Assembly: GCA_001275005.1 (NCBI GenBank)
Contig: JWZX01003355.1
Location: 1-36,509, forward strand
DNA: 36,509 nt
From: Chrysochromulina tobinii
Lineage: Eukaryota
Direction: 5' to 3'
Shown here one piece after another: positions 12,001-36,509 of this stretch. Position numbers and translations under genes: made by a program. Below the pieces are notes generated by a model that was not told the origin of the DNA, ran no database searches, and was given only the letters and a program-made list of their open reading frames with translations. Numbering within the stretch: position 1 is the stretch's first letter; each line of letters opens with the position of its first letter.

Positions 12001-15000
12001 TGAAGGCGTCGTCCGGTGTGACGCTGAAGAGCGAGTACGGGCTGCTGAGTATGCACGGGTAGCTGAGGACGCCGGTAGAGTCGCACTGCGGGGGCAGGCG
12101 CGTCGCGCCCCGATCGGACGCACGGTCGAGCCCGATCACAATCTCCCACTCGAGATTCTTGCGCCGCTCGCGCCCGAGGACGCTCTTGACGCGCGGGAAG
12201 GCATCCGTCGAGTTCTCGCCCACGTTGCCGCTGAGTGGCAGGCTCCGATTGGCTGTGATGGGTCGCGAGTTGCCGAGGGCGGTGCGCACCTCAGCGACGA
12301 GGGTCACAAAGGTGGGGTGCACGACCACCGTGTTGTTCTCGTCGTACATGACCTGGCTGAGGAGCACCACGCTGCCGTTGCCCGCGTCGTCGATGGTGAT
12401 GTCGAAGGCGGTGCCATCCTCGTTCCAGCGGCCCGAATAGGCGTTGCCCAGCGGCGTGCTGAAGTTGAGTAACGAGTCGACGTACTCGGTGCCGCCGCTC
12501 GTTTCGCCGCCACCCTTGTTGGTCGGGCGGTCAAACTTGAGCGAGATCGTGTCGTTCGCGCTGTAGACGGCGTCGAGGTTGTCATAGTCCTCGGCAACGA
12601 CCTCGACAAACACGGGCGCCTCGGGTAGCTGTCCGAAGTCGCCGACGAGGCGCACCGGCGGCGGCGTGAACGGCATCAGGCACGAGGCCTCGGCCACGGA
12701 CGCTGGACATCCGGCGCTGTTGCGCAGCCGCACCGCATTCGAGCGCACCGAGGGGAACACGCGGGTGGCGCCCAACTCGACGATGCCCGCGCCGGTCGAA
12801 TCCTCGATCTCGATGATAAAGGTGGACGTGTCGTTCCAGCTGCCCGCGTATGCGGCGCCGAGCGGCGTCGTGAAGCCAAACGTACGATCGACTGCGTCGC
12901 GTCCGCCCGTCGGTCCGATCGTCGCTTGGTCTACCGGTCGGTCGAGCACGATCGTGATCACGTCGCCAGGCCCAAAGACCTCATCGCCATTCCGAGGGTC
13001 CTCGATGCGGAAGCTCACGATGTTTGGGGCCGAGAGGGATCCGAACTGCCCTTGCACCTTCAGCACCGCGTCAGCCGCGGCCGAGGTGCGCGCACGGTTG
13101 CGCAGGTCGCCGGTGTTGCCATCGGTGTCGAGATCGACCCCATCGCCGCGCGCTTGGACGAGGGTCCGGCGCCAGTACGCCTCGGAGACGTTGAGCATCG
13201 TGACCGGGCGCACGTTGTCGTAGCAATTGGGCGGCGCCGCGGTGCCGCTCAGCTGGACGCACGCAAAGTGCGCCTCGGGCAAGCTCGAGAGGGAGGACGC
13301 GGGCTTCAGGATCGAGATGCGCAACGCAGAATCCTCTTCGATCCACTCGCCGCTGTAATCGTCGCCGATCGGCAGGCTGAACCAGAGCAGGTCGTCCACC
13401 CACTGCTTCCCGCCTTCGGGATCGCCTTGGCCTCGATCCGTGGCCATGTCGAAGGTGACGGTGAGCACATCACTCGCGCCGTACGTGGCGTCGCCGTCGT
13501 CAGGGTCGGTGCCAATGAAGGACGAGACCGCAGGTGGCAGCTCGTTGCCAAAGTCGCCCACAAGCAGCGCGACGACGCTGTTCATCGAATCGTAGCAGCA
13601 GCACGCGCTCCCAAGCGCACAGCGCTCCGGCGTGTAGTCGGCGCAGCAGCCGCGGTTACGCACAATGGAGCGAGGGCGCACAGTGGCGAGCCCGACCAGC
13701 ACGTCGCCGTGGCCCGACGGCTCAACGATCGTCATCACGAGCGTGGAGTCGTCGGACCATGCCGCACGCACATCCGCGCCCAGCGGCGCGCTGACGTTGA
13801 GCATGTCGTACGGGCACACGCGCGCGCCCGGCGGCGGCTGCGAGGCCACAGGCGCCCACGTGTCCACGGGGAGGCTGCACGGGTCGCTCGAGTCCGTTGT
13901 GAATCGAGCGCTGCGGCCGCCGCGGTCGGTCGCCAAGTCAAACGTGACTGTGAGCGTGTCGCCGCCGCCGTACACCGCATCGCCATTGTCGAAATCGTGC
14001 GCGGCAAACGAGACGATCATGGGCCCACGTGTCTTGCCATAATCTCCCGCGAGCGGTGGGCTGGGCGCAAAGGCCCGGGGCGACGAGCTCGAGCGAGTTC
14101 GAATGGCGGCGGCGTCCTTTGGCTTGACCGTCGCGCCGCTGACTGGATCGGGCATCGGCGTGCAGCCTGGGCACGTGGCCTGGAGGATCGTGATGCGGAA
14201 CACTGAGTCGGCGTCGAGCAGCCCGTCCGCGCTGCCCGAGGTCCACTCGCCGCTGTAATCGTACGCAAGCGGCTGCGAGAAGGAGACGAGCCCGTCGACG
14301 AAGGCCTTATCGCCCGATTTGGGCCCGCCGCCTCGATCCGTTGGGCGCGAAAAGTAGAGGGAGACGGTGTCGCCTGTGGAGTAGACATAGTCGAGGTTGT
14401 CGGGGTCGTTGGCAAGCGCCGAGAGCAAGCGGGGGGCGATCCTCGAGCTCAACGAGGTGCGGAGCGTCGCGTTGGCGGTCTCGACGCCGCCGATGCGCGT
14501 GCGCACGGTGGTGACTCCAACGCGCGCGCGCGACGACGCGCGCGCGTGCTCGAGCTCGAGCACGGTGATGAGCAGCCGCGTGCGGCTGAGCCATTCTCCT
14601 CGGTAGCGCGCGCCGAGCGCCGCACTAAAGAGCAGCCCCTCTTGCGCGTGAAAGGTACCGATGCGGTCGTCTGAGCCCGCCGCGGCCCAGGAGCCCCCCC
14701 AAAAGGAGGCGCTCGAGTTCTCGTTGACGAAATAGTGGTGCCACACCTCGCCCGGAACGTGCGCGCTCGTGTTGAACTCGAGGAGCAGAGTCGCGTTCGC
14801 GCCAAAAGAGCCGTCGGGGCGCAGCCCGCCGTGGCCCGCATGGAGCAGTTGGAAGGTGGACACGTGCGGCAGCTTCGGCGGAGGCGGGGCGTCGGTTTCT
14901 GGCGCCAGGAGTTCTGCCGGGTCGCCCTCGAGCGTGACGAGCTCGTTGGTGGACGCAGGGAGGTTGCCTCGCTCGTTGTACAGGACGGCCATCCCAGTGA

Positions 15001-18000
15001 GGTTGGCGACGGTCACGCCGACCGTGGGCGTGAGCTCTGCGGAAGTATTGACGAATTGCTCGAGGATCGTCACCTCGAACACGGTCGAGTTCCGCCACTC
15101 CCCCCAATACGAGCCGCCCAGCTGCACGGAGAAGCCGAAGAGCTCATCGACCGACGCCTTCGCCGCCTCGCGGGTCCACTCGGCCGCCGTCGTGCCGTTG
15201 GCGCCGCAAAAGGAGCATGTGCGGTTCGTGGGTTCGTCAAAGTGGAGGGAGTAGTAGACGGGGCCGGGCACGGACCCAAAGTATTGGCGTGCGCGGCGCG
15301 AGACGAAACTTGAGAGCCGCGGCCGGCGCGCCCGCCCAAAATGGCCCTGCAACACAACGTTCGTCTGGTTGAGAGGCTCGGTCAGGTTCAGCCGCCCGCC
15401 GCCTGCGTCGTAGAAGGAGCGGATGGGCTTGAGCACCGTCACCACCGTCTGGTTGATCAACGGCAGCTCGTACCGCGTCTCCGTCACCGTGATCGTGAAG
15501 ACCGAGTCATCCATCCAGGCTCCCGAGTAGCCGACCCCGGGAGGGATGGAGAAGTCAAACAGCGCCTCGACGCGCTTTTGCTTCGCCTCGACCGCGCCCA
15601 GGTCGGTGGAGCGGTCGAAGGCGATCGTGATCTGGTCACCATCCGAGAAGACATAGTCGACGTCATTGCTGGTGGCCGCGCCGGGGTCGCGCACCTCGAA
15701 GCGCTCGAGCAGCGGTGCGCCCGAGTCGGAGATGCCGCCGAGGGCGGACGACGTGACGGCGACGGGCGAGGTGCCGCCACGGTTCCGCAGCGTGCCCACG
15801 AGGGTGACGTTCGAGCGCTGGCGTGGCTCGCAGCCCGCATGGTTGCAGATGCGCAGCTCGCCCCCGAGGGTGTCGAGAGCGCGCACGCGGAAGGTGCGCG
15901 CGTCGGCCCACTCGCCCGTGTAGTCGGCGCCAATCGGCGGATCAAAGCGGAAGAGCTGGTCGACGAAGGCCTTGCCTCCTTCATACGCGCCCAAATTCGT
16001 CCCATGGTTGAATCGCACCGTGATCAAGTCCCCCACGCCGTACACGGCATCGCCATTGTCATAGTCCTCGGCGGTGACGTTGACAATGTACGGCGTCGTG
16101 GACTCGAAGAGCGGGAAGCGCGATCGCAGCTTGAGCTCGTCGAGCGAGGCAGGCGCCATGCCGGCCGAGGCGCGCGAGCGCGAGGTGCGATCGCGGATCG
16201 CCGCGTGGAGTGCGAGCGTCACCTTCTCTGTTCTCGCCACCGTCGCTGTCATCGCTGAGGAGACAGAGATGGCCTCGATGACGAAGGTGGAGTCGTCCTT
16301 CCACTGGCCCTGGTAGTTCAGCCCCACGGGCATCGAGACGCTGAAGAGCGAGTCGACGTACGCCGAGTTGCCCGCGACGGCGCCGCGCCCTCGGTCGGTC
16401 GCCTGGTCGAAGACGATCGAGATTTGATCTCCGGCGCCAAAGGTGGAGTCGCCGTGGTCCGGATCGTCGACGGAGACGAGCACGATCGAGGGAGTCACTC
16501 CGAACTCGGCGCGGAAGGGCGCGAAGCGATCGTCCTCCGACGCGACGATCGGGCCGACGAACGAGTTCGCGCCGTTGCACTTGCGCGCCGTGCTGAGCCT
16601 GCACCCCTGGTTGCGGACCCGCCCCTGCGTCTTGACGAGAATGGCGCCGAGCTCACTGTTGAGCTGCGAGCCCGTGCCGTCGACGATGCTGATCACGAAG
16701 GTCGAATCGTCCGTCCACTCGCCTTCGTACGCGTCGCCGATCGCGACCGAGAAGTTGAACCAGGTGCTCACCACGGCGGCGGGCACCCGTTTCCCGATGT
16801 CGTATGGGCACACGCCCCAGGGCGCAGCGACGGCGGGCGGGGTGGCCGATTGGCAGCCGAGGTCCGTCGCCCGGTCAAATGTGAGGCGGATCACGTCGCC
16901 GAATGCGACCGTTGCGTCGCCAAAGTCGGGGTCCTCGCCCACGACCGAGACGAGCACCGGCGGCTCGTCGAGGCCGCAATCTCCCGTGAGCACGGCCGAG
17001 ATCTCATTGAGCGGCTCGGAGGTGCCCGCGAGATTTCGGATCACGAGCGCGTCTCGCGGGCGCACCTGATGAGGGAGGCAATCAGAGGTCATCAGAGGCA
17101 ATCAGAGCCCGTCCATCTGGAGCGTCTCGCGGGCGCACCGTGCACGTGTTATTCGGGTGCACGTGCCCGTCAGCCAAAAAGGGCGGGAGCGACCGGTAGG
17201 AGGGCTCGAGGATGGTGATCTGAAAGATGGAGTCGTCGAGCCACTCGCCACTGTACGACTGGCCGAGCTGTGCATTGAACGCGAAGAGCGAGTCGACGTA
17301 CTCGCGGTCGCCCGAGTACCTGCCGAGCATGGTGCTATTGGAGCGATCGGTCGCCATGTCGAACGTGATGCGCAGCTCGTCGCCGGCGCCGTAGGCGAGA
17401 TTGATGTCATTCGGGTCGCTCGCAGAGAACTCGATGATCGTCGGCGTGCCCACGGGGCCAACGCTGCCCGTGATGGGCCAGCGTCGGATGACGGGTGGCG
17501 TGGTCGCGTAGTTGTTGAAGAACGTGAGGTAGTCCTCGCACTGTCGCGTCGTGACGCGCGACCACGAGTGTGGGTAGCGCGGCCCGAGCATGCGGCCGTA
17601 ATTGTCGAGGCCGCTGTTGCCAAATTGGTCAGTGGTCCGCGGCACGCTTGGCGGCGAGGGCTCGCCGTAGGCGCACGCCGACACGGTGACGCCCCCGTAG
17701 CCACACACGAGCATCGGGGCCTGAGAGGCCGAGAAGGACGTGGTGACGAACCAGGAGCCCGAGCGGAAGTTGGGCGGCTCGGCGCGGCTACCGAGCAAGT
17801 TCGAGTCGCACAGCCAGGGCATGGGGAGCGTCGCATTGAGGATCGTGATGACGAGCGTCTGGGGATCCTCCCAGGTGCCGCTGTACTCGGCGCCCAGGCC
17901 ATTGTACTCGGCGTCGATCGGGACCCCGTCGCGCACGCGAGCGCGCTCGCACCCCGGATTGCACGGCGTACAGAATGTGAGGTACTTATCAATGTCCCAT

Positions 18001-21000
18001 TTGGTCGAGACGGGCGGCCTCGCCGTGTCGAGGTTGAAACGGACGACCACCTCGTCGCCCGCGCCGTACACGCCGTCCGCATTGTCTGGGTCGCGAATGG
18101 ACGCAGAGCGCACCTGATGATGGAGGCAATCAGCACAATCAGCATGCAGTCTGCCGACGGCCGTGGAGAGCATGGGTCGCCAACGGACGCGGAGCGCACC
18201 ATCGGGCCCGCGTAGCAGTGCTGCATCGCAAAGTCTCCCCATGGGCTACCCGAGGTCGCCGAGGCCAATGGGCTGTTGGAGGCGGCCTTGAGGCCGGCGC
18301 TCTGCTTGACGGAGACACGGAGCCGGAACCCCTGCCCCTGTGGGATGTTGTACGTCTGGGCGGCGCCCGTGGTGCCGCCCATAGCGCGCTGGTGCGGGCA
18401 TGAGATCAGGACGTTATTCGCATCCCTCCGGCCGCATTGCGTCGCGTCGGGCATCTGCTCGCTCGGGATCGTAGCATTGAACTCGAGCGGCTCGATGACG
18501 AGCGTCATCGCGTCCGTCCAATTGGCGCGAAGGCGCGAGCCGAGGGTCCACTCGTCGGCCGTTACACTAATGGACTGGGCGATGAACGTCGCGCGGAACT
18601 CAAAGATCTCAAACAGGCGCGCCGCGTTGAGCGCCCCCTCCTCGTGCCCCAGCCGATTCGTCGGACGGTCAAACGTGAGCACGAGCTGATCGTGCACACT
18701 CCACGAGCCCGAACCGTCCATGTCGCCCACGTACGCATCGAGCAGCAGCGGCGCCGAGTGATCGCCAAAGTCGCAGAAGGGCTGCCCTTCGCACAAGCGA
18801 GGGTTCACATTCGTGCCAAACCGGCGGCCGATGAACGGGGGCGAGGCCGACTCGAGGCGGGAGGGCGTGTACGGGCCCAGCAGGTCCCACCTGTCATCAG
18901 GGGAGGTCATCACGGGAGGTCATCACGGGCGGTCATCAGGGGAGGTCATCAGGGGAGGACATCAGAGGTCATCAGAGGTCATTAAGGGATTCATCAGGTA
19001 ATCAGGGGAGGTCATCAGGGGAGGTCATATCAGGTAATCAGGTACCGATTGCGGAATCGCGCCTCCCGGCTCGGCGTGACGCGCATCGTGCCCAGCTGGG
19101 ACTGCGTGAGCGCGGCTGGGTTGACGCCCGGGCTACCGTCGAGGATTGTGATCACCACGCGCTCAGGTTCGTTCCACGCGCCGCTGTAATCCAGCCCGAG
19201 GCCGCAGCTGAAGTCGAAGTACCGGTCCACCCATCGTTTATCGCCCTGGAAGGCGGGTAGCAACCCACGATCGGTCGGCATCGAGAAGCGCAGCTCGAAC
19301 GAGTCGAAGGCGTCGTACACCGTATCGGCGTAGTCGACGTCGCGCACCACGAAAGCGGCGATCCGTGGTGCGCCCGCCTCCCCGAAGGAGCCACGGAGCG
19401 GCGGTGAGGTCGTGTTGCTCAGATCGGAGATGCCACCTCGGAAGCGGATCGGGCGCTGTGTGCCAGCGGCGTGACGCGCCTGCACGACCGTATCGCCGAG
19501 GGCGAGCCCAGAACCGAGCGGATCGAGCAGCGTCACTACAAATGTTGACTCGTCCGCCCAGGCACCCGAGTAGCCGTTGGGCGCGCCGCTCAGCGCGACG
19601 GCGCTCGACTGGTTCAGCCAGGCAGCCGGCGACTGGGAGGGCACAAAGTCGGCATCCTCGGGGCAGCTGCCCACGGGCCGATAGTAGAGCTCAGCTCCAG
19701 CCGGGCCAGCACGTATGAAGCTCTGGTGCGTCACGAGGCCGGCGAGGCCGAACGCTGCGAGCTCAACGCTCGTAAAGGTCAGCTGCTGCGCCCGGAGCCT
19801 CGCCGCCAGCCCCGCGTTGATGAGTTCCATCCCCCCACTTGGACGAAATGGCCCCGCGTCGAACCAGGCCAAGCCGAGCGTCGAGCTGCGACAGAAGCGG
19901 AAGAGTGAGTCCACATACGCGTGGTCACCCGAGGTGGCGCCGCCACCCACGCCGCTCGCCCACGGCTGCGGCGGCGAGACGCCAAGATCGGTCGGACGAT
20001 CGAAGGTGATGGTGAGCGTATCTCCCGCGTCGAGACCGGGGGCGGAGTTATCCTCGTCGGCCGCGACGAAATCGACGAGGCGCGGCGGCGGTCGCCGGCC
20101 GCGGTCGCCCGTCAGCCGGTTCGAGCTGCGCGCGGAGGCCCCGGAGCTCGAGCGCAGGTGGATCGCGGGCGCCGCAAACGTGGCGCCCGAGACGGCGCGC
20201 CCGCCCCGCGTGTCATGGAGCGTGATGACGAAGCACGGATGAAGGGTGGTAGTGCCGCCGTCGGCGCAGTCATCGGACTCGCCGTCGCGCCACGCGCCGG
20301 TGTAATTCGCCGCAATCACGGCGGAGAAGCCGAAGAGATGGTCAACGTACGCCTTGCCTCCCGAGCTCATCTCCGAGCCGCCGCCCCGGTTCGTCGCCAT
20401 GTCAAAGTGGAGCACCATCGTGTCGCCGTCGGTGTAATTCGTCGCGTTCGCGGCGACGACGACGGTGAAGCGCGTGATGGCGGGTTCGCTAAAGACCCCA
20501 GCGTCGCCGGTGATGGTGACGGTCTGGTTGTTCGCGTCCAGCAGGTCACTCGCCGCGTTCTTGATCTGATCCGTGGTGACGGTGACCGTACTCGTCCCCG
20601 GAGCGAGCGCACCGCCCGACGGGTTGATGATGGTGATGATGTAACGGCTGGGCGTGGCCCAGACACCCGAGTACTCGACCCCGAGAGGACGACTGAACGC
20701 AAAGAGCGCATCGACGGCCGCGCGGGACGAGTTGGCGCCCGGGACGACGATGGTCGGCGTGTTCGTCGGGATGTCGAACTGGAGGATGAGGACGTCGCCG
20801 ACGCCGTACACGTCATCCCCATTGTCCACGTCGTCGAGCGTCGCGGAGAGCAGTCTGGGGAAGGTCGGCACGCCGAGGTCGCCCGTGAGCATGGGCGAGG
20901 TGGTGTTGGCGTAATGGAGCGTGCAATCATGCAAGCTCGAGTTGACAATGGACGGGTTCGTGAGCAAGTTGACATAGTCGTCGGGCCAGCCTCGCTCGAG

Positions 21001-24000
21001 GTCCATCAGGTTGGAGCATGTCTTGGCCGTGTAGTTGAGATTGGTGATGCCGCCGGAGGGGCGCGCCGTCACATTGAGCTCGCCAACGCGCGGTGGGAAG
21101 ATCTGCGACCCTTCCGCGTCGACGATGGTGACCACGAACGTCGAATCGTCCTTCCATTCGCCCGTGTAGTCGGCACCGAGCGGGTGCGAGAACTCGAACA
21201 GAGCGTCGACGAGCGCCTTGCCGCTCAGCGAGCTGCTGCCCAGCGGGTAGGGGACCACCTCGGGCGGGCCGCCCTTGACACCCGCGCCGTTGGCCGGATA
21301 CACGAGCGTCGACGGCTGCTGGTAGTTGCTGTGCGTCACGCCCCGGTTCGTCTGCTGGTCGAAGACGATGGTGAGCACGTCGCCGGACGAGAAGACGGCG
21401 TCTCCATTATTCGGATCGTCGGCGACGAAGCGGATGATCCGCGGCCCGTCGCCCGCCCTTCCAAAGTCGCCTTCCAAACGAGGCAAGCTTGCGAGCGCCG
21501 GCGTGCCATCAGTGAGCATCGTGCTCGCGTCCAGCCGCGCTGCGGAGCCGCTGAGGGTGGGCGCGAGGCAGTAGGGGGTGCCTCGGAACTCTGCCGGGCA
21601 CGAGAGAGACTGCACGCGCACATCGCGACGGAGTGCGACGCGCGTGCCAGAGTCCGCAAAGGCGGTGCCGTAAGGCCTGTAGCTGGGGGCGAGGATCCCT
21701 GGCTGCGGCGCGGCCGAGCCGTTGATGACCGTGACGAGGAAGGTGGAGTCATCGAGCCAGCCGGTCGAGTACTCGTGGAAGAGAGGCTGCACGATGCGAC
21801 TGCCCGACGCGTCGAAAAAGTCGAAGAGACGCGCGAGCTGGGTGTTGAAGAAGCCGTTGCCCGAGCACTGCGACGAGAAGTCACAGTTGAGGACTCCCGA
21901 GTACTCCGCGAAGGCGTTGGCGGCGCGGTCGGTGGGCACATCGAAGCGAAGCGCGATCGTGTCCCCTGCTCCGGGGATGAGGTCGCGGTTGACGAAATCG
22001 GACGCGATCACCTCCACGAGCCGTGGCGGTGTGGGAAAGGTCTCGACGCGCTCGGCGACACCGAGGAGCGCCGCCTCCATGACGAGCAGCGGCGCCGTCT
22101 GCGCCAGGTTCGTCATGTTCGCCTCACGCGCAATCCGTAGCATCGTGTCATACGGCCGCGGCGCGTACTCCGGATCGGGATACGGCTCCGTCACGGTCAC
22201 CACGAACGTCGAGCCGTCGGACCAAGCGCCGCTGTACTGGGCGCCCAGCGGGGCCGAGACGCTGATGAGCGAGTCAACATACTCCTTGCCGCCCGATCCG
22301 CGCTGTGCACAGAAGGGCAGGTTGTTCACAGAGAGGGCCTGCTGCAGGCATCGGCCAGGGAGCACCGCGCGGTCGAATTGCAGCACGAGCTCATCGAAGG
22401 CATCGTAGCTCGCGTTCGCGTTGTCGCGGTCATGTATGAAGAAGCGTAGCAGGGAGGGCGCCGTCTCGTTCGCGCCAAAATCGCCCACGCTCAGCCGGTA
22501 CGATGCACTCGAGAACTCGGACGTGCGCGGCGCGTTCTGCAGCCGGCCGGCGACGGTGACGAGGGCGCCCGAGGAGCCACCCACGCGTGGACCAGTGCCT
22601 GCACCGGTAGGATCGAGGATGGTGACGACAAAGGTGGAAGTGTCGAGCCACGCGCCGCTGTAGTCGGCTCCGAGTGGCTCGGAGAAGGCGAGCGTCGTGT
22701 CCACGAACGCCCTGCCGCCCTCGCGCCTGCCCAAGTCTGTGGGGAGGTCGAACTGGATGGCGAGCGTGTCGTTGCGCGACCACAACGGGTCCTTGAGGTC
22801 CCACGTCTGCGAGTCGTACCGGATGATCGAGGGGGGGGTCATCGTGCCGGGATTGCCCGTCAGCGCCGAAGTGGCGCGGCACCAGCGCGAGCGCTCGTTC
22901 GCGGTCTTGATGTCGCCGGCGACCGAGACTGTGACGGCGCCCAAGACGGCGCCCGGGCTGGACGGCATCGTGTGGCCACTCACGTCGACCATGGTGATGA
23001 GGAAGGTGAGCGGGTCGAGCCAGCGACCGTTATAGCGCGCACCGAGCGACTCGCTGAAGCGGAAGAGCCGATCGACCAGATCGCGATCTCCCGCCTCGGT
23101 TGCGAGCTCGTCGTACCTGATGAGGGAGGCACTCAGAGGTCATTCGAGGCACCCAGAGGTCATTCGAGGCACTCAGAGGCAGTCACGCCAGCTTCTTGTC
23201 GTCGTACCCCTCGACCCTCGAGATAGCGCGATTCGTTTCCGAGTCGAACGTGATCGTGAGTGTGTCGCCGTCCGAGAAGACGACGTCGCGATTGTCAGGG
23301 TCCGCGAGTACCGCAGACAAGATCTTAGGCGCGACCACCCCGGCCTCACCCGTCATCGAGAGGAAGCCCGCGGAGATGGGCGAGGTGCGCGGCGTGTTGC
23401 GAAGGTCTCCTGCAATAGTGAGGGTGGAAGTGAAGCCGCCGCCCCACAAGCAGCGTGCGACCTGCGGCATCGAGGGGAGCTCGGTCAATCCAGATCCCAT
23501 CCAGATCAATCCAGATCCCATCAAGATCAAGGGCAAATCGAGGATAGTCAAGGTCAATCAAAGGGACTCACCTGCGTCATCTCCTGTTGAGAGAGGGGCT
23601 GCGACTCCGACACAAACGCAGCCAAGCCCCTGCCCGTGAGCGTGACACGTGTCCCCCCGCGCTTGGGCCCCGCCTCGGGCGTGATGCCGGAGAAGACGGT
23701 CGGCTGCACGTAGTACGTGTAATCGAGGCCGGTGTCGATGTACACGGCGTCGTCGCTCGAGAGCAGCAGATGCACGTCGCCACTCTGACCGACGGGCGGC
23801 GTGGCGCAGAGGAGCCGCTCCCTGCTCACCTGTGGGGATATGGCGATGGCGCCGTGGTGAGCACTTGCATGCAGGCGTGGCGCAGAGGAGCCGCTCCCTG
23901 CTCACCTGCAGCACCGGCATCACCACCTCGCGCGAGCTGCCGAAGCGGCAGAAGGCGATAGGGCCCGCATCGAAACCAAAGCCGCGGAAGGTGACGAGGG

Positions 24001-27000
24001 TTCCTCCGGTGGTCACACCCCCGGGCGGCCCGCCGTTCACAGTCACCTGGTCGATTCGCAGGCCGTAGTAGCGGAATCGGTACGTCGTGTCCACGTACTG
24101 CTGGGCGTTGAGCGTCACGAGCACGAACGCGGCCTCGGCCTCAGCGATCGCCGTCTGATCATTGCCATATTTGGGTATGGTTGCCATATTTGGGCGAGCG
24201 GCACACGTTCAGTGAGGATCAGAGGCACTCAGGGGCCATCAGAGGGCATCGGAGGCACTCAGAGGGCATATGAGGCCATCAGAGGGCATCGGAGGCCATC
24301 AGAGGGCATCAGAGGGCATCAGAGGGCATCAGAGGGCATCAGAGGGCATCGGAGGGCATCGGAGGGCAGCACGCACCTGATTGGGCGAGCGGCACGTCCA
24401 CCGCTCAGGTAGCAGCTCGATCGGCGGTGTGTCGGCGATGTTATTCGACGTGACGAAGCGGCAGCTCGCAAACTCGGTGTTGCCCCCGAGCCCGTGGAAG
24501 CCCTGCCCAAAGATGCTCATGATGTAATCAGAGGTAATCAGAGAGGTAATCAGAGGTAATCAGAGGACTCACCTGACCAAAGATGGTCATGATGTAATCA
24601 GAGGTAATCAGAGGTAATCAGAGGTAATCAGAGGACTCACCTGCCCAAAGATGGTCATGATGTAATCAGAGGTAATCAGAGAGGTAATCAGAGGTAATCA
24701 GAGGACTCACCTGCCCAAAGATGGTCACCACCGTGCCGCCCGAGAAGACGCCTGCCTGCGGCAGCACCGACTGCACCGAAGGCGGGTTGTAGTACGTGTA
24801 GTTCTGACCCGTCCAGCGCGGATCGCGCCCCGACTCGAGGGCGAAGCCGTTGAGGGCGAGCCAGAGCTGACGCGTATCGGTCAACTTCGTGGGTGGGCTC
24901 TCGCACACGGCGGCATGCCCGCCGCCGAGCGCCGTGGCGCGCGTGATCGTGTAGCGAGGGTTGTACGCGGCGTTCGTCGGCTCGCCGTACTGGCACGAGA
25001 GGTACGCGCCGCGATCGAGCGCGTCGAATCCAGTGCCGACGAGGGTGACGAGGGTACCGCCTGTCCGATGACCGCCCGAAGGGATGATGCGCGCTACGTA
25101 CGGGTTGTCATAGTATTGGAAGTTGAGGCCCGTCGCACCAAAGTCGATGGCGTTGAGCGAGAGGGTGAGGTTGACCGTCTCGGCAGCCCCGATGCGTGCT
25201 GGCGGCGCGAGGCACACGATGCGCCGATTCGAAAGCTCGAGGGGCTGCGACTCAGGCGGCGGCAGGCTGAGGGTCTGTGCCAGGCTCGCGGCCAGCATGT
25301 CCACGATCGGGGCCTGCCAACGGCAGCGCACGAGGCTCGACGAGAATGCAAGGAAGCCCGAGCCCACGATCGTGACTGCCGTGCCCCCTCCCTTGGGACC
25401 ACCCACGGGGGACAGCCGGACGAAATCCTCGTTGGATGAAACCCCGGCGCCACTCCCCTTGGGGCGGGGCTGCTGATAGTACTCGAACGTGAAGCCGGCG
25501 ATCGGCTCGAAGTCGGTCTGCGCGCCATTGAAGGAGAGGGCGATGCTCACGACGGCGGGCTGTGCCGCCGGCGGCGTCGTGCACACGATCATATGGCGCT
25601 CGAGGACCTCGGCTGCCACGAAGTTGACGAGCCCAAACCGACACAACGCGTTCCGCGGGTCGGTCGAGAAGACGTCAAACGGACCTCCTAGGATGGTGAC
25701 CGAGGTGCCTCCGCGCGTCGGACCGCCTGTCGGCTCGCTTGCCGTGTAGTTCGTCGGCTGCTCATAGTACAAGAAGGAGACGTTGAGCGCGTACAAGTCG
25801 ATCGCGTTGAGTGCGAGCGACATGTTGCGCCGAGCCGTCGTCGACTGGGGGAACGAGGCGACGACGATGCGATTGGGCGTGAGCACGCTCGGTGTCGTCA
25901 GGTTCGTCAATGACGTGTCGCCCCACCCGACGCGCACGTCACTCACGTTGATGGAGGCGTACGCTTTGAAGCCACTCCCGCCCAGAGTAACGACGGTGCC
26001 GCCGTCGACCCGCCCGCCCGTTGGGTGGATGGACGTCACCGTGAACGGCTGCACGAAGTACGTGAAGTTCAGCGCCGTGTCGGGCGTCACGGCCACATAG
26101 TCGCGGTCGTTGAGCGCGATCTCAAGGCCCACGACGGTGGCTTGCGTGAACGGCTGAGCGGCTGTCCTGCACCAGAGCTGCGTGTCGTCCAGGTACTGCG
26201 GGATGGTCACCTCCGTCCCATCCCATCGGCATCGCGCGTTCCCCGCCTGCGCGCCCCCCAGTCAACGGCCGCATGCAATTAGAGTGATCATCAGCGGTCA
26301 TCAGTGGTCATCAGTGGCCATCAGCGGCCATCCGAGCTCATCCGCGCTCATCAGCGCCACTCACCTGCGCGCCCCACCGGGCGAATGCCGCGAGGCCCTC
26401 GCCATGGATCGTGATCACCGAGCCGCCGAGGGTGGGGCCCGCCGTCACGGGGGTCAGATGCGTGAGGCGCGTCGGCTGCACGAAGTAGGCATACTCGAGG
26501 CCGTTGGTGTGGTAGTCTTGGCCGTTGAGGGCGATCTCCATGTCGGTCACCACCGGCGACGAACGCACCGGCGAGCGGCACACGACGCGCATGGGCGTGA
26601 GCACCGTCGGTGTCTGGAAGCTCACCAGAGGCGTCACGGCGTCCTCCGCCTCGGTCACATTGGTAGACAGGCAGGGGCGCAGCTCGACATTCGAAGTGCT
26701 CAGAGGCGCCGAGCCGTCGAGGTAGGGAGGTGCACTGCCCAGCCGACGCAGGCGCGTCTGCCCCGGACGGATGGAGATGCGCAGCCCCGAGCCTGATGAC
26801 GGGAGCCATCAGATAGGATCAGAGGCCATCAGAGGCCCTCCGAGGCCCTCCGAGGCCATCAGAGGCCATCAGAGGCCATCAGAGGCACTCAGAGGCCATC
26901 AGAGGCCATCAGAGGCCATCAGAGGCACTCGGAGGCACTCGGAGGCCATCAGAGGCCATCAGAGGCACTCGGAGGCACTCAGAGGTGACGAACCGCCTTG

Positions 27001-28495
27001 GAGTAGATTGGTAGGCGCGGCCTGCGAGTCGCCGCCCGACACGGCGCCTGGCGTGACGCGTGCGTTGATGGCCTTGAGGGTGAGGCGACGCGTGTCGAGC
27101 CACTCGCCCGTGTACGTATCAGCCAAGCGCACAGGCCCGCCTTGCCCCCTGCTCGAGAAGACGAAGAGTTCGTCCACCTGGCGCGAGAGCCGCAGGCGAG
27201 GGTATGAGGGCGATCGTGTGTGAATGAGGGCGATCGTGTGTGAATGAGGGCGATCGTGTGTGAATGAGGGCGATCGTGTGTGAATGAGGGCGATCGTGTG
27301 TGAATGAGGGCGATCGTGTGTGAATGAGGGCGATCGTGTGTGAATGAGGGCGATCGTGTGTGAATGAGGGCGATCGTGTGTGAATGAGGCCCATGCAGCT
27401 TCGATCCAAGGTCATTCGCGCCCCGCCCAGGCATGACTCCGAGCCACGCCTCGGAGCCATGTAACGTACCTGTGGGGAGTGAGGGCGTCGTGATGAGCAC
27501 TTGCATGCCGAGCCACGCCTCGGAGCCGTGTAACGTACCTGTGGGGAGTGAGGGCGTCGTGATGAGCACTTGCATGCCGAGCCACGCCTCGGAGCCGTGT
27601 AACGTACCTGTTCACCGGTGAGTTGGCGCGAGAAGCCGTTGAAGGCGGTGGCCGCGAGTTGGATGCCGTTCGTTGGTATATCGAAGATGACCGAGAGAGG
27701 CACCGCGCCTGTGAGTGCATCGGCTTCGCACCCGTCCGGCTGCGAGCCCACGCGGAACGCTACGATCGAAGGCTTGTCGGTGAACCGGCACCGGATCAGT
27801 GTGTCCGCGAGGTCGATGTGGGACTCGTTCAGGTAGCCTCCCGTGAAGCCGATGCCCTCGATCACGACCTCGGTACCGCCGGTGACGGGCCCGCCCGTGA
27901 TGGCGGCGTTGGTGAAGTTTGCGGGTGCCGGGTAGTAAATGTACGTGAACCCCGTGTCCATCAGGTTCGGCTCAATGAACGTCGTCCCTACTGTCGTCCC
28001 AGCGAGCGTTATGTAGCGCAGCGAAAACCACAGGCTGACTAGGCCCGACACGCGCGGGTACGACGGGCACTTGAGCATATCGACGCGGCTGATGCTGGCC
28101 GGGACGTCAAAGGTGGCGCGCAGCTCGGGCGTCACGGTCACCTCGGTAAGCAGCTGGGTCGCCTCCGTAAAGTATTCGGGCGGCACCTCGGGCAACGACG
28201 CCTCATCGTCGCTCCAGCCCGACCGGTCGGCCTGCTGTCGCGCAAGGATGGCCTGCTCCCAGTCCTGCGGATTGCCCCAGTGGCATTTCACGCGGTTGAG
28301 CACGCCGGTGCTGATCCGGCTGAACTCGCGGCCGACGATCGTCACGGTCGTGCCGCCCTGCACCGGCCCGCCGGTCGGGTGGGCCGAGTAGACGGGTGGC
28401 GCTTTCTCGTTATGGCTCGTGCTCCGGCTCCCAGGAGGGAGTATGAGCAGCAGCGGCAGCAGCAGCAGCGCTGTGGGAGCACGCCTGCGCGCCAT
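1..28495 (-). CDS. Giant secreted/cell-surface repeat protein with IPT/TIG domains and ~44 copies of an uncharacterised acidic ~130-150-aa module; 3'-partial (>8,800 aa)
   Basis: ATG at 28495 in CCACCATGG context, followed by signal-peptide-like MARRRAPTALLLLPLLLILPPGSRS. Inferred exons: 28495-27608, 27177-26994, 26792-26365, 26246-24711, 24502-24377, 24154-23906, 23829-23572, 23461-23208, 23116-19046, 18890-18200, 18113-17139, 17065-8162 (one extra base at 8749-8752), 8021-3522, 3352-<1. All joins are GT-AG and phase-consistent, and they stitch the long minus-strand ORFs (481, 514, 1320, 2784, 1523 aa and others) together. IPT signature P..GP..GGT.VT..G.GF...CR[FW]...C..P...LNG..F. Confidence 0.85.
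3353..3521 (-). other. Intron 13 of giant gene (5' exon copy plus type A acceptor cassette)
   Basis: Starts GTTCGTCGCGCCC; next exon starts GTTCGTCACGCCC; ends TTGCCTCCCTCATCAG; contains 10-bp and 24-bp tandem repeats. Confidence 0.8.
8022..8161 (-). other. Intron 12 of giant gene
   Basis: GTACGC...CTCCTCAG, phase 2, filled with degenerate CTGAT repeats; joins SGQ-YMTTP. Confidence 0.7.
17066..17138 (-). other. Intron 11 of giant gene (17-bp 5' exon copy plus type A cassette)
   Basis: GTGCGCCCGCGAGACGC occurs at the intron start and at the next exon start; ends TGATTGCCTCCCTCATCAG. Confidence 0.85.
18114..18199 (-). other. Intron 10 of giant gene (27-bp 5' exon copy, 3 mismatches)
   Basis: GTGCGCTCCGCGTCCGTTGGCGACCCA versus exon GTGCGCTCTGCGTCCATTCGCGACCCA; ends TGATTGCCTCCATCATCAG. 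Confidence 0.85.
18891..19045 (-). other. Intron 9 of giant gene (CTGAT minisatellite)
   Basis: GTACCTGATT...GATGACAG, phase 2, joins RNR-WDLL. Confidence 0.75.
23117..23207 (-). other. Intron 8 of giant gene (9-bp 5' exon copy plus type A cassette)
   Basis: GTACGACGA at both the intron start and the exon start; ends GAGTGCCTCCCTCATCAG. Confidence 0.8.
23462..23571 (-). other. Intron 7 of giant gene (3' end resembles upstream exon end)
   Basis: GTGAGT donor; ends GATGCCGCAG versus exon end GATGACGCAG. Confidence 0.8.
23830..23905 (-). mobile_element. Intron 6 of giant gene: introner-like unit (32-bp exon duplication plus type B cassette)
   Basis: GTGAGCAGGGAGCGGCTCCTCTGCGCCACGCC is identical to the next exon start, followed by TGCATGCAAGTGCTCACCACGGCGCCATCGCCATATCCCCACAG. 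Confidence 0.7.
24155..24376 (-). other. Intron 5 of giant gene
   Basis: GTGCGT...GATCAG; 10-bp CTCTGATGCC array; internal copy TGCCGCTCGCCCAA of the upstream exon end. Confidence 0.75.
24503..24710 (-). repeat. Intron 4 of giant gene: three tandem intron units (70/68/70 bp)
   Basis: Each unit is GTGAGTCC-(TCTGATTACC)n-...CATCTTTGG[G/T]CAG, ending in a copy of the upstream exon end; internal AG|GT at 24641/24640 and 24573/24572. Confidence 0.85.
26247..26364 (-). other. Intron 3 of giant gene (11-bp 3' exon copy)
   Basis: GTGAGT donor; ends GGGGCGCGCAG, the same as the upstream exon end. Confidence 0.8.
26793..26993 (-). other. Intron 2 of giant gene (10-bp minisatellite)
   Basis: GT donor at 26993 (an in-phase GC donor at 26996 is also possible); CTCTGATGGC array; ends CCCGTCATCAG. 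Confidence 0.7.
27178..27607 (-). other. Intron 1 of giant gene, containing two 69-bp type B units and a 20-bp minisatellite
   Basis: Splicing GEQ|VDELFVFS restores the repeat-module consensus; units at 27607-27539 and 27538-27470. Confidence 0.75.
27204..27389. repeat. 20-bp minisatellite (TGAATGAGGGCGATCGTGTG), about 9 copies
   Basis: Near-perfect tandem array with no spacers, inside intron 1. Confidence 0.95.
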
Positions 28496-28832: not shown

Positions 28833-31085
<2,253 letters not shown>

Positions 31086-31530: not shown

Positions 31531-34500
31531 TCACCGAAAGCCTAACCCCAACCGCGTGCCTGGCAGCTGCGGGGACTCGTTCCTGGGCGGCGGCGAGTTC
31601 CGAGCGTTCTGCTGGTTGAGCTGGTCCCACGCGTTGACCGGGATCTCCTTGGCCGTGGCATAGCGAATGTGCATTGTGGTGGCGCCGAGCCCGACGGCGC
31701 GCGCCGCGCGCATCTCGACTGTCTGGACTTCGTGCCAGTTCGCCTTCCGCGCGGACGGGTGATGGACCTCCGGCTGCACGCGAGCGCTGTACTGACCGGG
31801 CCCCTTGACAGGGGTCCCATTGGGTAGGATGTAATGCGGCTCCGAGCGCGCGCTACTCGAGGGCGGCGGGTGCGGCGCCGCGTCTCGCAGCCCTACCGGT
31901 AGGCTCGACGCGAAGGCGCCGTCGCGAGCGCTCGCGCTGCCGCCGCCTTTGGCTGTACGCCGGTGACGCGGCGAGCTGCCCCCGAGGATGGCGGCCGCCG
32001 CGGCGCCATCGGAGGGCGCGTGGGGGGGCATGCCCGCAATCTCCGCCTCGGGAGATCCGCGTCCGGAGTGGCGGCTCGACGGGAGCGGCGGGAGCGCTGC
32101 ATCGGGCGCGCCGTGCGCCGCATAGGCTGCCGAGGGCGGATGGGCCGTCGCCGCCGGCGCCTGCTGCCGCTGCTGGTGCTGCTGGTGCTGCTGGTGCTGC
32201 TGGTGCTGCTGGTGCTGGTACTGGTGCTTCTGCCCGGGTGGCGAGGCCGATCGAGGGCGCACTAAGGCTGCCTTATATAGGAGGCCAGCGAGGGTGCCCT
32301 CGCGCTTCCCCTCGAGCTTCGCGGCCGCGTCAGAGCGCACCCCGGCCTGCGCTGCCAGGTGCACCCGCAGCAGGTGGAGCGAAGCGAGGGCGGACTGCAC
32401 CAAATGAGAGCGCTCAGCGGCGGCCGCCACTTGCGTGCCCTCGAGCTTCTCCGTCACGTGCTGTAAGTTCAGCTCGATGCGCTGAAAGTCCGCTTTGCGC
32501 GCCTTGAGCTCCTTGAGCATGTCTTGCCGTCGAGCCTCGAGGCGTGCCTCGTTCGCCCTCGCGCTCTTAAGAGAGTTCTCGGATTCCTGTGCCTTGCCGT
32601 GCGCCGAGCGCACCTCCGCCACCGAGGCCGCCACGACTGCCTTGTAACGGTCGAGGAGGATGCGTAACCGATCGGCGACGGGCGCATTCGGCGGCTCGAG
32701 CAGCGTATGGATGCTCATCAGCCAATCGGGCAGCGGCTCGCCGGAGCGGCCCGTGTAGTACCTGATGAGGGAGGCAATCAGAGGTCATCAGAGGTCATCA
32801 GCCAATCGGGCAGCGGCTCGCCGGAGCGGCCCGTGTAGTACCAGCTATCCGAATGAGGCACGATCGCGGCGCCTTTGCTCGCCGTCTCGCCGGCGCGTTG
32901 GCGCAGCTCGAGCAGCTCCTCAATCGCCTCGCGCACGACGCCGTGGACGTCGTCGAGGTGCTGTGTGGAGCGCACCGCCTTCGAAACGGCCTCACCGAGC
33001 TGCGCCCCGAGGCGCTCGGCAGCCGCGACCGCCTGCGCCGCCCTCTCTCGATACCGCCGCTCCTCCTTGAGCTCATCGTCGGCGTCGTCGAGCGTGTGGC
33101 ACAGCGCAATCTGCGCCACCTGACGTGCGGCGAGGTAGCCCTTGAGCTTGGCGACCTCGCTCGCATGCACCTCCTTGAGCATCGCGAGATCGGCGAGATG
33201 GCGCTGGCTCGAGCGCCGCCATCCGCCGCCGCATGCGCGTCCTCGATCGTGCGAAGGGTCGCGCGCGTCGCCTCGTGCGCCGCCGCCTCCTGTGCCGTCG
33301 CCGCTGCCGCCGCCGCCGCCGCCGCGTGAGCAGCCTCGAGCTCGAGCTGGAGCGTCGCGACCTGCGCCCCGTGCGCGCTGATCTGCGCGCTGACCTGCGC
33401 ATGTAGCGCTTCCAGCTCGGCCGTGTGGTCCACCGGTGGCGGCTTGGCGCGCTCCGCCTCGAGCTCGTCGCTCACCTGATGAGGGAGGCACTCGATCTAA
33501 TTAGGGATGCAATCAAAGGCAAACAAAGGCCATCAAATGGCCTCGAGCTCGTCGCTCACCTGGCGCAATCTCGCCTCGAGCTCCGAGATATGGAGCTCAA
33601 GCGCACGCTGGCCCGCCGCGCCCTGCTCGAGCGCTGTGCGCTGCTCCTCCACGAGCGCCTCGAGCTCGCGCAGCCGCGCCGCCGCCGCCTCGCGCCTCGC
33701 CACCTCTTCCGGATCCTCCTCCCGCACCTGTGGGGAGGAGAGGGCGCCGTGGTGAGTACATGCATGCTGGGAGAGGGAGACACGGATCCTCCTCCCGCAC
33801 CGTTTCCACAACGAGCGGCGCGTCGAGCGAGGGGTCCTCGGGCGGCTCGGGTGGTTCGACGACGCCCTCGAGCTCCTGTGAGCCGCGCAGCCGGCGCGCG
33901 AGCCGGCGCAACTCCCACCGCAGCTCCTTGGCCACCCGTTGCGTCGCCGCGTCCACGTCCGCGATCACCTGTGGGGAAGGGTGAGGCGCCATGGTGAGCA
34001 CTTGCATGGCACCAGCCGCAGTAGGGATCGTCCACGATCACCTCGGAGCGAAGAATCAAGTGCACTCAAGTGCAATCAAGTGCAATCAAGTGCAATCAAG
34101 TGCAATCAAGTGCAATCACCTCGGAGCGGAGCTGTCGCGTCGCCTCCTCCGCGGCGGCCGAACGCTCAGCGAGTGCGATCGCCTCGGCCTCCTTGGTGCC
34201 CAAGCGCGCGAGCGCCTCGTCGAGCTGGGCGCGCACCTGTGGGGAAGGCGAGGCGCCGTGGTGAGCACATGCATGCTGGCCGAGGCGCCGCGCGTCGAGC
34301 TGGGCGCGCACGGCGTCGGTCTCGGCACGCAGATTCGCGGCCGTCGCCATCGCCTCGAGCGCCTCGATCTCGTGCTGCGCCGCCAGCGCGGCAGACGCCT
34401 TCTCCGCCGCCGCCGCCGCGGACGCTGCCTTGGCGAGCTCGTCCTTGAGGACTTTCTCGCGCTGCTCGGCCTTGACGGCGCGCTCCTTCTGCAGCTCGAA

Positions 34501-35603: not shown

Positions 35604-36509
35604 GGACGCAACGAACGTCATGCAGCTCTAACACAAATCCACTCCGGTCCTTCACCGCGTCTCGCACCGCTTCTTTCCCTGCATCTTCCATGCTGTTGTA
35701 CTTGAGGTTGAGCTTGGTCAGGACCGCGTTGACCTTGAGCACCTCTGCAATCGCCTTGGCACCGTCATCCCTGATGGAGTTGGTACCGAGGTTGAGGGTG
35801 GTCAACACCGCGTTGACCTTCAGCGCCTCCGCGATCGCCTTGGCACCGTCGTCGCCGATGGAGTTGTTGATTAAGTTCAGGTTGGTCAGGACCGCGTTGA
35901 CCTTCAGCGCCTCCGAGATCGCGATGGCTCCCTCGCCCCCGATGTAGTTGCCTCCAAGGGCGAGGGTGGTCACCACCGCATTGACCTTCAGCGCCTCTGC
36001 GATCGCCTTGGCACCGTCGTCGCGGATGAGGTTTGTAGGGAGGACCAGACTGATCAGGACTGCCATGAAATGCAGGTCAGACCCGATGAGGATGGCGTCG
36101 GCGGATTGGAGCTTCTGGCCATGCAAATTGGCCTTCGTCTGGTCGCGCGTCATGCCCGAGAGCATGATGCCCTTCTCCATACCGATTTTGGCAAGCATCG
36201 TGGCCGACTCCACGTCGAGGCCGTTCTTGAGCAAGTTGCAGCTTTTGAGCGCCGAGCTGAACTTGAGCAGATCAGAGAGGACGAGGGCGCCGGAGACCCC
36301 AACGCCTCTCAGGTCCAGCTTTGTCAGCGCGTCCGCGCGTAGCTTCTTGATTGGGATCTCCGAGAAGACCTCGAGAGATGCGCTGCTGAGGACTGCTGTC
36401 GCGAGTTGCTGCGCCCCCTCTCCGTCGATGTTGTTGTTGGCAACGGAGAGATTTTCAAGCACCGGGCTGAGCTGCATCAGCTCGGCCAGCACAATGCCCT
36501 CGGTCGCCC
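35596..36509 (-). CDS. Ribonuclease-inhibitor-type (NLRC3-like) leucine-rich repeat protein, 5'-partial
   Basis: 28-aa (84-bp) repeats N.I.DDGAKAIAEALKVNAVLT.LNL; the frame stays open beyond the window edge. Confidence 0.88.
   Translation of the reverse strand, partial: ATEGIVLAELMQLSPVLENLSVANNNIDGEGAQQLATAVLSSASLEVFSEIPIKKLRADALTKLDLRGVGVSGALVLSDLLKFSSALKSCNLLKNGLDVESATMLAKIGMEKGIMLSGMTRDQTKANLHGQKLQSADAILIGSDLHFMAVLISLVLPTNLIRDDGAKAIAEALKVNAVVTTLALGGNYIGGEGAIAISEALKVNAVLTNLNLINNSIGDDGAKAIAEALKVNAVLTTLNLGTNSIRDDGAKAIAEVLKVNAVLTKLNLKYNSMEDAGKEAVRDAVKDRSGFVLELHDVRCVPA

What the first reader, a model, noticed from the sequence alone, without database searches (positions are those of the whole stretch)
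24503..24710. Three complete intron units stacked with zero-length exons (possible recursive splicing)
Seen: 70, 68 and 70-bp units, each GTGAGT...CAG, abut at CAG|GTGAGT. Removing one unit regenerates the same donor context. Because each unit ends in a copy of the exon end, unequal crossover between the copies would amplify the whole intron. Inference: it is removed either stepwise (ratchet) or in one piece, and copy number may vary between alleles.
Basis: partly seen in the sequence, partly recalled or inferred. Interest (0 to 1): 0.7.

Follow-up and report, generated by a model that had tools for sequence, protein, structure and literature searches.

The report
Triplicated intron in a haptophyte alga
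In a haptophyte alga, one 208-base intron is three near-identical complete mini-introns joined end to end; the mature RNA loses all of it, and it likely arose by DNA duplication between short repeats left by a recent intron gain, while stepwise (recursive) removal remains possible but untested.

Summary
On the minus strand, 24710-24503 is three complete intron units (70, 68, 70 nt; GTGAGT...CAG) with no exon between them, in a giant IPT/TIG-repeat gene of Chrysochromulina tobinii or a very close relative. Two other assemblies carry the same three units, DNA contigs span an internal junction, and 4 of 4 RNA runs laid show or fit the whole 208 nt removed in frame. A relative's genomic gene has no intron here, and each unit ends in a 17-nt copy of the exon end. 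The stack is best read as a young intron, born with a long target-site duplication and then amplified between those repeats. It is not unique: 15 of 22 hand-annotated introns in the window carry such exon copies and 4 of 22 are stacks. One stack does not regenerate a donor and so appears to leave in one step. The scan earlier noted repeat-flanked introns in this genome and stacked mini-introns in Rozella. Verdict: new variant of a known kind, moderate interest.

The parts
24641..24710 (-). Unit 1 (70 nt): GTGAGT donor, 10-nt repeat body with branch-like motifs, exact 17-nt copy of the upstream exon end supplying CAG
   Evidence: its donor is the one used in mature RNA
24573..24640 (-). Unit 2 (68 nt): same as unit 1 with a private 2-nt deletion and one substitution at acceptor -4
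   Evidence: DNA contig across the unit 1/2 junction (record 12)
24503..24572 (-). Unit 3 (70 nt): same as unit 1 with one private substitution that makes an extra AG 15 nt before the end; its terminal CAG is the acceptor used in mature RNA
24711..24727 (-). Last 17 nt of the upstream exon, the sequence copied at the end of every unit (inferred target-site duplication)
24711..26246 (-). Upstream exon, 512 codons, three Pfam TIG (PF01833) matches
   Evidence: RNA contigs
24377..24502 (-). Downstream exon, 42 codons, continues the IPT/TIG fold in frame with no gap against homologues
27178..27607 (-). Second stack in the same gene: 69 + 69 + 292 nt, each part starting GTACGT and ending CAG; the 69-nt units begin with a 31-nt copy of the start of the third part
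   Evidence: homologues P0002 and P0008 lack the insert; no RNA laid here
30002..30160 (+). Third stack, in prolyl-tRNA synthetase: 73 + 86 nt; the second unit starts with the exon-type GG, so no donor is regenerated
   Evidence: full removal gives the protein of P0089/P0091/P0043; no RNA laid here
33969..34119 (-). Fourth stack: two unlike introns abutting (78 nt ending in a 9-nt exon-end copy, then 73 nt starting with a 13-nt exon-start copy)
   Evidence: no RNA laid here
1..28495 (-). Host gene: giant secreted or surface IPT/TIG-repeat protein, open for 5,992 codons from the ATG at 28495 after removing 11 introns, one frame break near 8750-8823, then open to the window end
   Evidence: hand-made gene model

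Best explanation
The 208-nt intron is three complete mini-introns in tandem, removed in full from mature RNA, and it likely arose when a recently gained 70-nt intron flanked by a 17-nt copy of the exon end was duplicated twice at the DNA level between those direct repeats. Step 1 (inferred): an intron-making insertion put a donor plus 10-nt-repeat filler behind the exon's CAG and duplicated the last 17 exon bases, which supply the acceptor. Step 2 (inferred): unequal exchange or slippage between the two copies repeated the unit, which automatically makes CAG|GTGAGT joints. Step 3 (shown): the mRNA joins 24711 to 24502. Step 4 (inferred): the stack is tolerated because every pairing of a donor with a downstream acceptor leaves a smaller stack of complete introns, so all routes end in the same mRNA. 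The zero-length exons would be a neutral by-product, not a selected ratchet, and the route is probably mixed.
For: Full skip with GT..AG ends in 3 of 3 RNA runs, and piece lengths fit it in a fourth (X8 record 26). All 7 partial forms carry stops. Homologue P0072, called on a 339,564-nt contig, reads through the site without a break, as do P0005, P0097, P0099, P0100 and P0101 on short contigs. 15 of 22 window introns have a site-specific exon copy scoring 9 or more, against 9 of 462 mismatched pairings. 4 of 22 are stacks. The ProRS stack's second unit starts with the exon's GG rather than the intron's GT, which is what a crossover inside the flanking repeat gives. Close strains (91-95% protein identity) appear to carry an element-type intron near 25101 that the window lacks, with overlaps of about 28 nt (P0001, P0063) and about 45-55 nt (P0070) (inferred from proteins only). 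Units differ by only 3 private changes.
Against: No strain with one or two units was found, so the amplification series is not observed; the three assemblies may be one strain. Absence in a relative of about 60% identity could be loss rather than gain. Of the window's introns only four junctions have RNA support; the other three stacks rest on reading frame and homology. The internal splice sites are intact and score as well as the used ones (donors 11.3; acceptors 5.5 and 8.1 against 6.6; 18-intron matrix), which also fits real use of them. P0096 leaves the frame a few codons before the site and says nothing about it.
Confidence: 0.7

Rival explanations
1. Stepwise (ratchet) removal is the main route: each 68-70-nt unit is defined and cut as it is transcribed, regenerating the same donor, so this is true short-range recursive splicing. 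This is compatible with the duplication origin and differs only in route.
For: Each unit has a top-scoring donor, branch-like motifs and an acceptor as good as the distal one, and units 1 and 2 lack the decoy AG of unit 3. Unit size is close to the commonest simple introns of the window (73-91 nt, 9 of 18).
Against: No intermediate or intron-specific contig in 3 RNA runs, though the data are blind to the 5'-to-3' series. Introns of 201 and 222 nt without internal YAG|GTR exist in the same gene. The ProRS stack has an identical proximal acceptor that apparently is bypassed. The exon junction complex is reported to suppress regenerated donors in mammals (PMC8605326, Introduction).
Confidence: 0.4
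2. The stack is removed only in one piece, first donor to last acceptor, and the internal sites are silent.
For: Only the 208-nt join is seen. The ProRS stack 30002-30160 seems to need this route. 208 nt is within the range of simple introns (73-222 nt).
Against: The internal sites are near-identical to the used ones and come first in the transcript; no masking feature was found.
Confidence: 0.3
3. The copies came from RNA: a full-length intron circle (3' end joined to 5' end) was reverse-transcribed around more than once and recombined back, which gives exact AG|GT joints.
For: The repeat period equals the intron exactly. Full-length intron circles exist in yeast and other species (PMC10996645, passages; that paper does not propose tandem copies).
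Against: The 17-nt direct repeat already explains the exact period. The ProRS stack's second unit starts with exon-type GG, which a circle would not give. The 33969-34119 stack joins two unlike introns.
Confidence: 0.07
4. The triplication is an assembly artefact.
For: The tandem repeat has 95% identity between copies, and a nearby perfect array does differ between assemblies.
Against: Identical units and private differences in 3 of 3 assemblies, a junction-spanning DNA contig, and matching depths.
Confidence: 0.02

Closest known systems
Zero-nucleotide recursive splicing at ratchet points in Drosophila and mammals (PMC5126111, passages; PMC8605326, Introduction; 10.1101/006163, search listing only)
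   Same: Juxtaposed acceptor|donor with no exon between; the donor is regenerated after each cut and the product is invisible in mRNA.
   Different: Known ratchet points lie mostly in introns of many kb, are strongly conserved and have detected intermediates. Here the whole intron is 208 nt, young and absent in a relative; the segments are copies of each other; no intermediate is shown.
Introners / introner-like elements with target-site duplications, including the Chrysochromulina sp. family that carries its 5' site and takes its 3' site from a 4-bp duplication (PMC9860276, passages; 10.1101/2020.10.14.339549, part 1 of 4)
   Same: The donor is carried by the insert and the acceptor comes from the duplicated exon end; no terminal inverted repeats; the mRNA is unchanged.
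   Different: The duplication is 17 nt here and 9-47 nt across the window, against the 3-9 bp described. The body is a 10-nt repeat, not shown to be a discrete multi-copy family. The words 'tandem', 'nested' and 'recursive' do not occur in the main text of PMC9860276; its supplements were not seen.
[quoted passage not shown]
   Same: A local duplication across splice signals creates new functional splice sites.
   Different: Here the duplicated unit is an entire intron, so no exon sequence separates the copies and no new intron position is created.
Fungal stwintrons (PMC7138796, passages)
   Same: A short complex intervening sequence of several U2 units; one case can be removed in one or in two steps.
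   Different: In stwintrons the inner intron interrupts or abuts a splice element of the outer one. Here the units lie side by side, each is complete, and no order is imposed.
Stacked ~29-nt mini-introns of Rozella allomycis (unchecked scan notes e1-9766309, e1-7125561)
   Same: Chains of complete mini-introns with zero-length exons.
   Different: Those notes argue that a tight intron-size limit forces piecewise removal. This alga has simple introns of 73-222 nt, so no such limit applies.

Membership tests
Recursive splicing (ratchet points) | Acceptor directly followed by a donor that is regenerated after splicing | tested here: met
   Two internal CAG|GTGAGT joints; donor score unchanged after upstream removal
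Recursive splicing (ratchet points) | Splicing intermediates or segment lariats detected | tested here: inconclusive
   None in 3 RNA runs, but 5'-to-3' intermediates have 0 diagnostic 31-mers and contigs drop rare forms
Recursive splicing (ratchet points) | Located in a long intron | tested here: not met
   208 nt in all; simple introns of the window reach 222 nt
Recursive splicing (ratchet points) | Ratchet site conserved in evolution | tested here: not met
   A relative's genomic gene has no intron here (P0072); 3 private changes would miss the internal cores by chance with p about 0.76, so there is no sign of selection
Recursive splicing (ratchet points) | Internal sites needed for correct mRNA | not testable with these tools
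   Needs mutagenesis
Introner / introner-like element | Target-site duplication supplying one splice site | tested here: met
   17-nt exon-end copy holds the acceptor; longer than the 3-9 bp in PMC9860276
Introner / introner-like element | Dispersed family of near-identical introns at unrelated sites | tested here: inconclusive
   The unit's first 15 nt match only the three units plus one 3-mismatch exonic hit in the window; no whole genome was held
Introner / introner-like element | Terminal inverted repeats (some families only) | tested here: not met
   Only 6-nt internal matches, none pairing the unit ends
Introner / introner-like element | Recent gain, absent in relatives | tested here: met
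   Continuous reading frame across the site in P0072 on a 339-kb contig; one genomic lineage only, so loss there is not excluded
Stwintron | Inner intron interrupts the donor, branch or acceptor of an outer intron | tested here: not met
   Each unit is complete and none splits another's signals

The most novel reading that the evidence does not exclude
Chrysochromulina continually makes introns with long, variable target-site duplications (9-47 nt) at AG|GT-like sites, including the edges of existing introns. These repeats drive whole-intron amplification, so about one intron in six is a stack of complete introns that is spliced recursively over only about 70 nt. That would be a living source of newborn ratchet points and a natural series, with and without a regenerated donor, in which to test how recursive sites arise.
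Probability: 0.3. Interest if true: 0.68.

Novelty: new variant of a known kind. Interest (0 to 1): 0.42.

Why it matters
It shows a simple route by which zero-length-exon splice joints are born: an intron gained with a long exon duplication can be amplified as a whole at no cost to the mRNA. The window alone holds four stacks of three different makes (identical units with regenerated donor, identical units without one, unlike introns), which gives built-in controls for one-step against stepwise splicing in a culturable alga. Nine literature searches gave no paper describing tandem whole-intron stacks or long-duplication introns in haptophytes; the library lacks most subscription papers, and supplements were not read. 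If splicing is one-step, it remains a tidy case of intron-gain by-product and a pitfall for gene annotation.

Tried and rejected
No whole genome was held, so stacks could be counted only in the 36.5-kb window. Scans for more haptophyte DNA gave nothing usable: viral contigs 1, 0 and 1 hits and prokaryote genomes 1 hit, likely chance; loci L003-L005 were only screened for repeat motifs and dropped. The single metagenome scan returned 2 loci of 253 candidates, both near-identical to the window, so no allele with another unit number could be tested. The broad repeat scan was swamped by 10-nt arrays and its output was cut; I replaced it by a hand-made list of 22 introns in three genes, leaving out a frame break near 29193, the break at 8750-8823 and the leucine-rich-repeat gene at the window end. 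The absence of intermediates in RNA contigs is not counted as evidence against recursion. A 40-nt piece at 24594-24634 in the RNA runs is a generic 10-nt repeat and was not taken as an intermediate. Rejected: hidden microexons (all 7 partial forms have stops; homologues have no insert); a protein-coding repeat; an assembly artefact. No structure or complex prediction was run, as neither bears on the question.

Full report
Observation. On the minus strand, 24710-24503 is three units of 70, 68 and 70 nt. Each begins GTGAGT, carries four YTRAY motifs in a 10-nt repeat and ends in CAG; the last 17 nt copy the upstream exon end (exactly in unit 1, with one mismatch in units 2 and 3). Tandem Repeats Finder reports period 70, 3.3 copies, 95% matches. 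YAG|GTRAGT occurs 6 times in the window against 0.49 expected, three of them here.

Is it real DNA? Two other metagenome assemblies (L001, L002) carry identical units with the same three private differences, while a nearby perfect 20-nt array is 40 nt shorter in L001. A DNA contig of run X7 crosses the unit 1/2 joint without mismatch, and 12 to 24 of its 24 31-mers are impossible in a one-unit allele. Three of four contigs in the stack have the depth that three units predict; one is higher, 67 against 44. X7 gave no contig over 24375-24527. All of these sources may be one cultured strain, so they show that the assembly is right but say nothing on variation.

Host gene and organism. The stack interrupts a very large IPT/TIG-repeat gene. 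A hand-made model from the ATG at 28495 stays open for 5,992 codons after 11 introns are removed, breaks once near 8750-8823 and is then open to the window end. The upstream exon has three TIG matches. The neighbouring prolyl-tRNA synthetase falls in a 90%-identity cluster with a named Chrysochromulina tobinii protein, so the organism is that haptophyte or a very close relative. It is reported as likely haploid (PMC4580454, passages).

Splicing outcome. Three of three RNA runs list a single joint, 24501 to 24710, 208 nt skipped, with GT..AG ends on the minus strand. In a fourth run the pieces of one contig fit the same product (X8 record 26). Six RNA runs were listed and four were laid. All seven forms that keep one or more units contain stops, and the two flanking exons align to homologues with no gap, so no microexon is hidden. 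No intermediate was seen, but this is weak: forms that keep units 2+3 or unit 3 have no diagnostic 31-mer, the others have 12-26 or none, and contigs drop rare molecules.

Origin. Homologue P0072, called as one reading frame on a 339,564-nt contig, runs through the site, so that relative has no intron here. Five more homologues on short contigs also read through, though these may be transcripts; P0096 leaves the frame earlier and is uninformative. In the window, 15 of 22 hand-annotated introns have a site-specific copy of the flanking exon (9-47 nt) at one end, against 9 of 462 shuffled pairings. Some carry the donor and take the acceptor from the copy, as here; others carry the acceptor and take the donor from the copy. 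Proteins from close strains (91-95% identity) suggest an extra intron of the second type near 25101, absent from the window, with overlaps of about 28 nt in P0001 and P0063 and about 45-55 nt in P0070. This points to repeated insertion at one GTACGT site (inferred from translations, no DNA seen). An earlier unchecked scan note (e1-2577349) describes the same footprint elsewhere in this genome.

Stacks are common in this window. Four of the 22 introns are stacks: this one; 27607-27178 (69+69+292 nt, each part starting GTACGT; homologues P0002 and P0008 lack the insert, although the two 69-nt units are in frame and stop-free, so their retention is not excluded); 30002-30160 in ProRS (73+86 nt); and 34119-33969 (two unlike introns). 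The ProRS case is the useful control. Its second unit begins with the exon's GG instead of GT, as expected from a crossover inside the flanking repeat. It cannot regenerate a donor (score 2.5 against 8.7), so the correct protein, matching P0089, P0091 and the Haptolina homologue P0043, appears to need one step past an identical proximal acceptor. I laid no RNA on these three stacks.

Mechanism. Shown: three complete units, full removal, exon-end copies, absence in one genomic relative. Inferred: gain of one unit with a 17-nt duplication, two rounds of unequal exchange or slippage between the copies, and tolerance because any donor-acceptor pairing leaves complete introns that can be cut again (confidence 0.7). 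The route is open. Internal donors score as high as the first (11.3) and internal acceptors about as high as the last (5.5 and 8.1 against 6.6), and units are the size of many simple introns, so stepwise cutting is plausible (0.4 as main route). But simple introns of 201 and 222 nt exist in the same gene and the ProRS stack suggests proximal acceptors can be skipped (0.3 for one step only). Three private changes would miss the internal splice cores by chance with p about 0.76, so there is no sign of selection on them.

Comparison. It looks like a ratchet point but fails two tested features of described recursive sites, long intron and conservation, and intermediates are untested (PMC5126111, passages; PMC8605326, Introduction). 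It resembles the Chrysochromulina introner family that carries its donor and recruits its acceptor from a 4-bp duplication (PMC9860276, passages), but the duplication is four times longer, there are no terminal inverted repeats and a dispersed family was not shown. It is not a stwintron (PMC7138796, passages) and differs from duplication-born introns (PMC4974935, abstract) in copying a whole intron. PMC12130899 has no mention of haptophytes in its main text. Nine searches found no description of such stacks in haptophytes; supplements were not read and may list these families. The scan has noted stacked mini-introns in Rozella (unchecked).

Verdict. A real and well-supported structure, most likely a neutral by-product of long-duplication intron gain, and part of a pattern that is frequent in this window. 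Recursive splicing is possible and easy to test but not shown. New variant of a known kind; interest 0.42.

Noticed in passing
window 27178-27607 (-), 30002-30160 (+), 33969-34119 (-): Three further stacked introns of different makes: repeated units ahead of an older intron, repeated units without a regenerated donor, and two unlike introns abutting.
   Followed up: partly
window about 25101 (-), proteins P0001, P0063, P0070: Close strains appear to carry an element-type intron that the window lacks, at the same site but with different duplication lengths, suggesting parallel gains. P0057, P0065, P0062 and P0064 also break off at other points of the same exon.
   Followed up: partly
window 23830-23905, 27470-27607, 33728-33800, 33969-34041, 34237-34311 (-), 30252-30337 (+): A shared acceptor-carrying element of about 40-45 nt ends several unrelated introns; a second shared acceptor ends those at 3353, 17066, 23117, 32762 and 33476.
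   Followed up: partly
window 23514-24095: A second sequence version with about 30 substitutions appears at equal depth in DNA runs and also in RNA, while 24698-26311 shows one version only: a partial paralogue or local duplication in a reportedly haploid alga.
   Followed up: no
window 1-28495 (-): Giant protein of more than 8,800 codons with a signal-like N-terminus, IPT/TIG domains and many copies of an approximately 130-residue repeat; Pfam gave no passing match for the one repeat-rich exon scanned (19036-23106).
   Followed up: no
window 8750-8823, about 29193, about 33200: Reading-frame breaks, possibly single-base assembly errors; L001 and L002 differ from the window by three single-base indels in 35765-16974.
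   Followed up: no
window 24155-24376 (-): This 222-nt intron holds an internal 14-nt copy of the upstream exon end that is not at the acceptor, perhaps an older duplication with a shifted 3' site.
   Followed up: no
window 35704-36028 (-): An 84-nt (28-codon) tandem repeat that looks like a leucine-rich-repeat gene (recalled resemblance, not searched).
   Followed up: no
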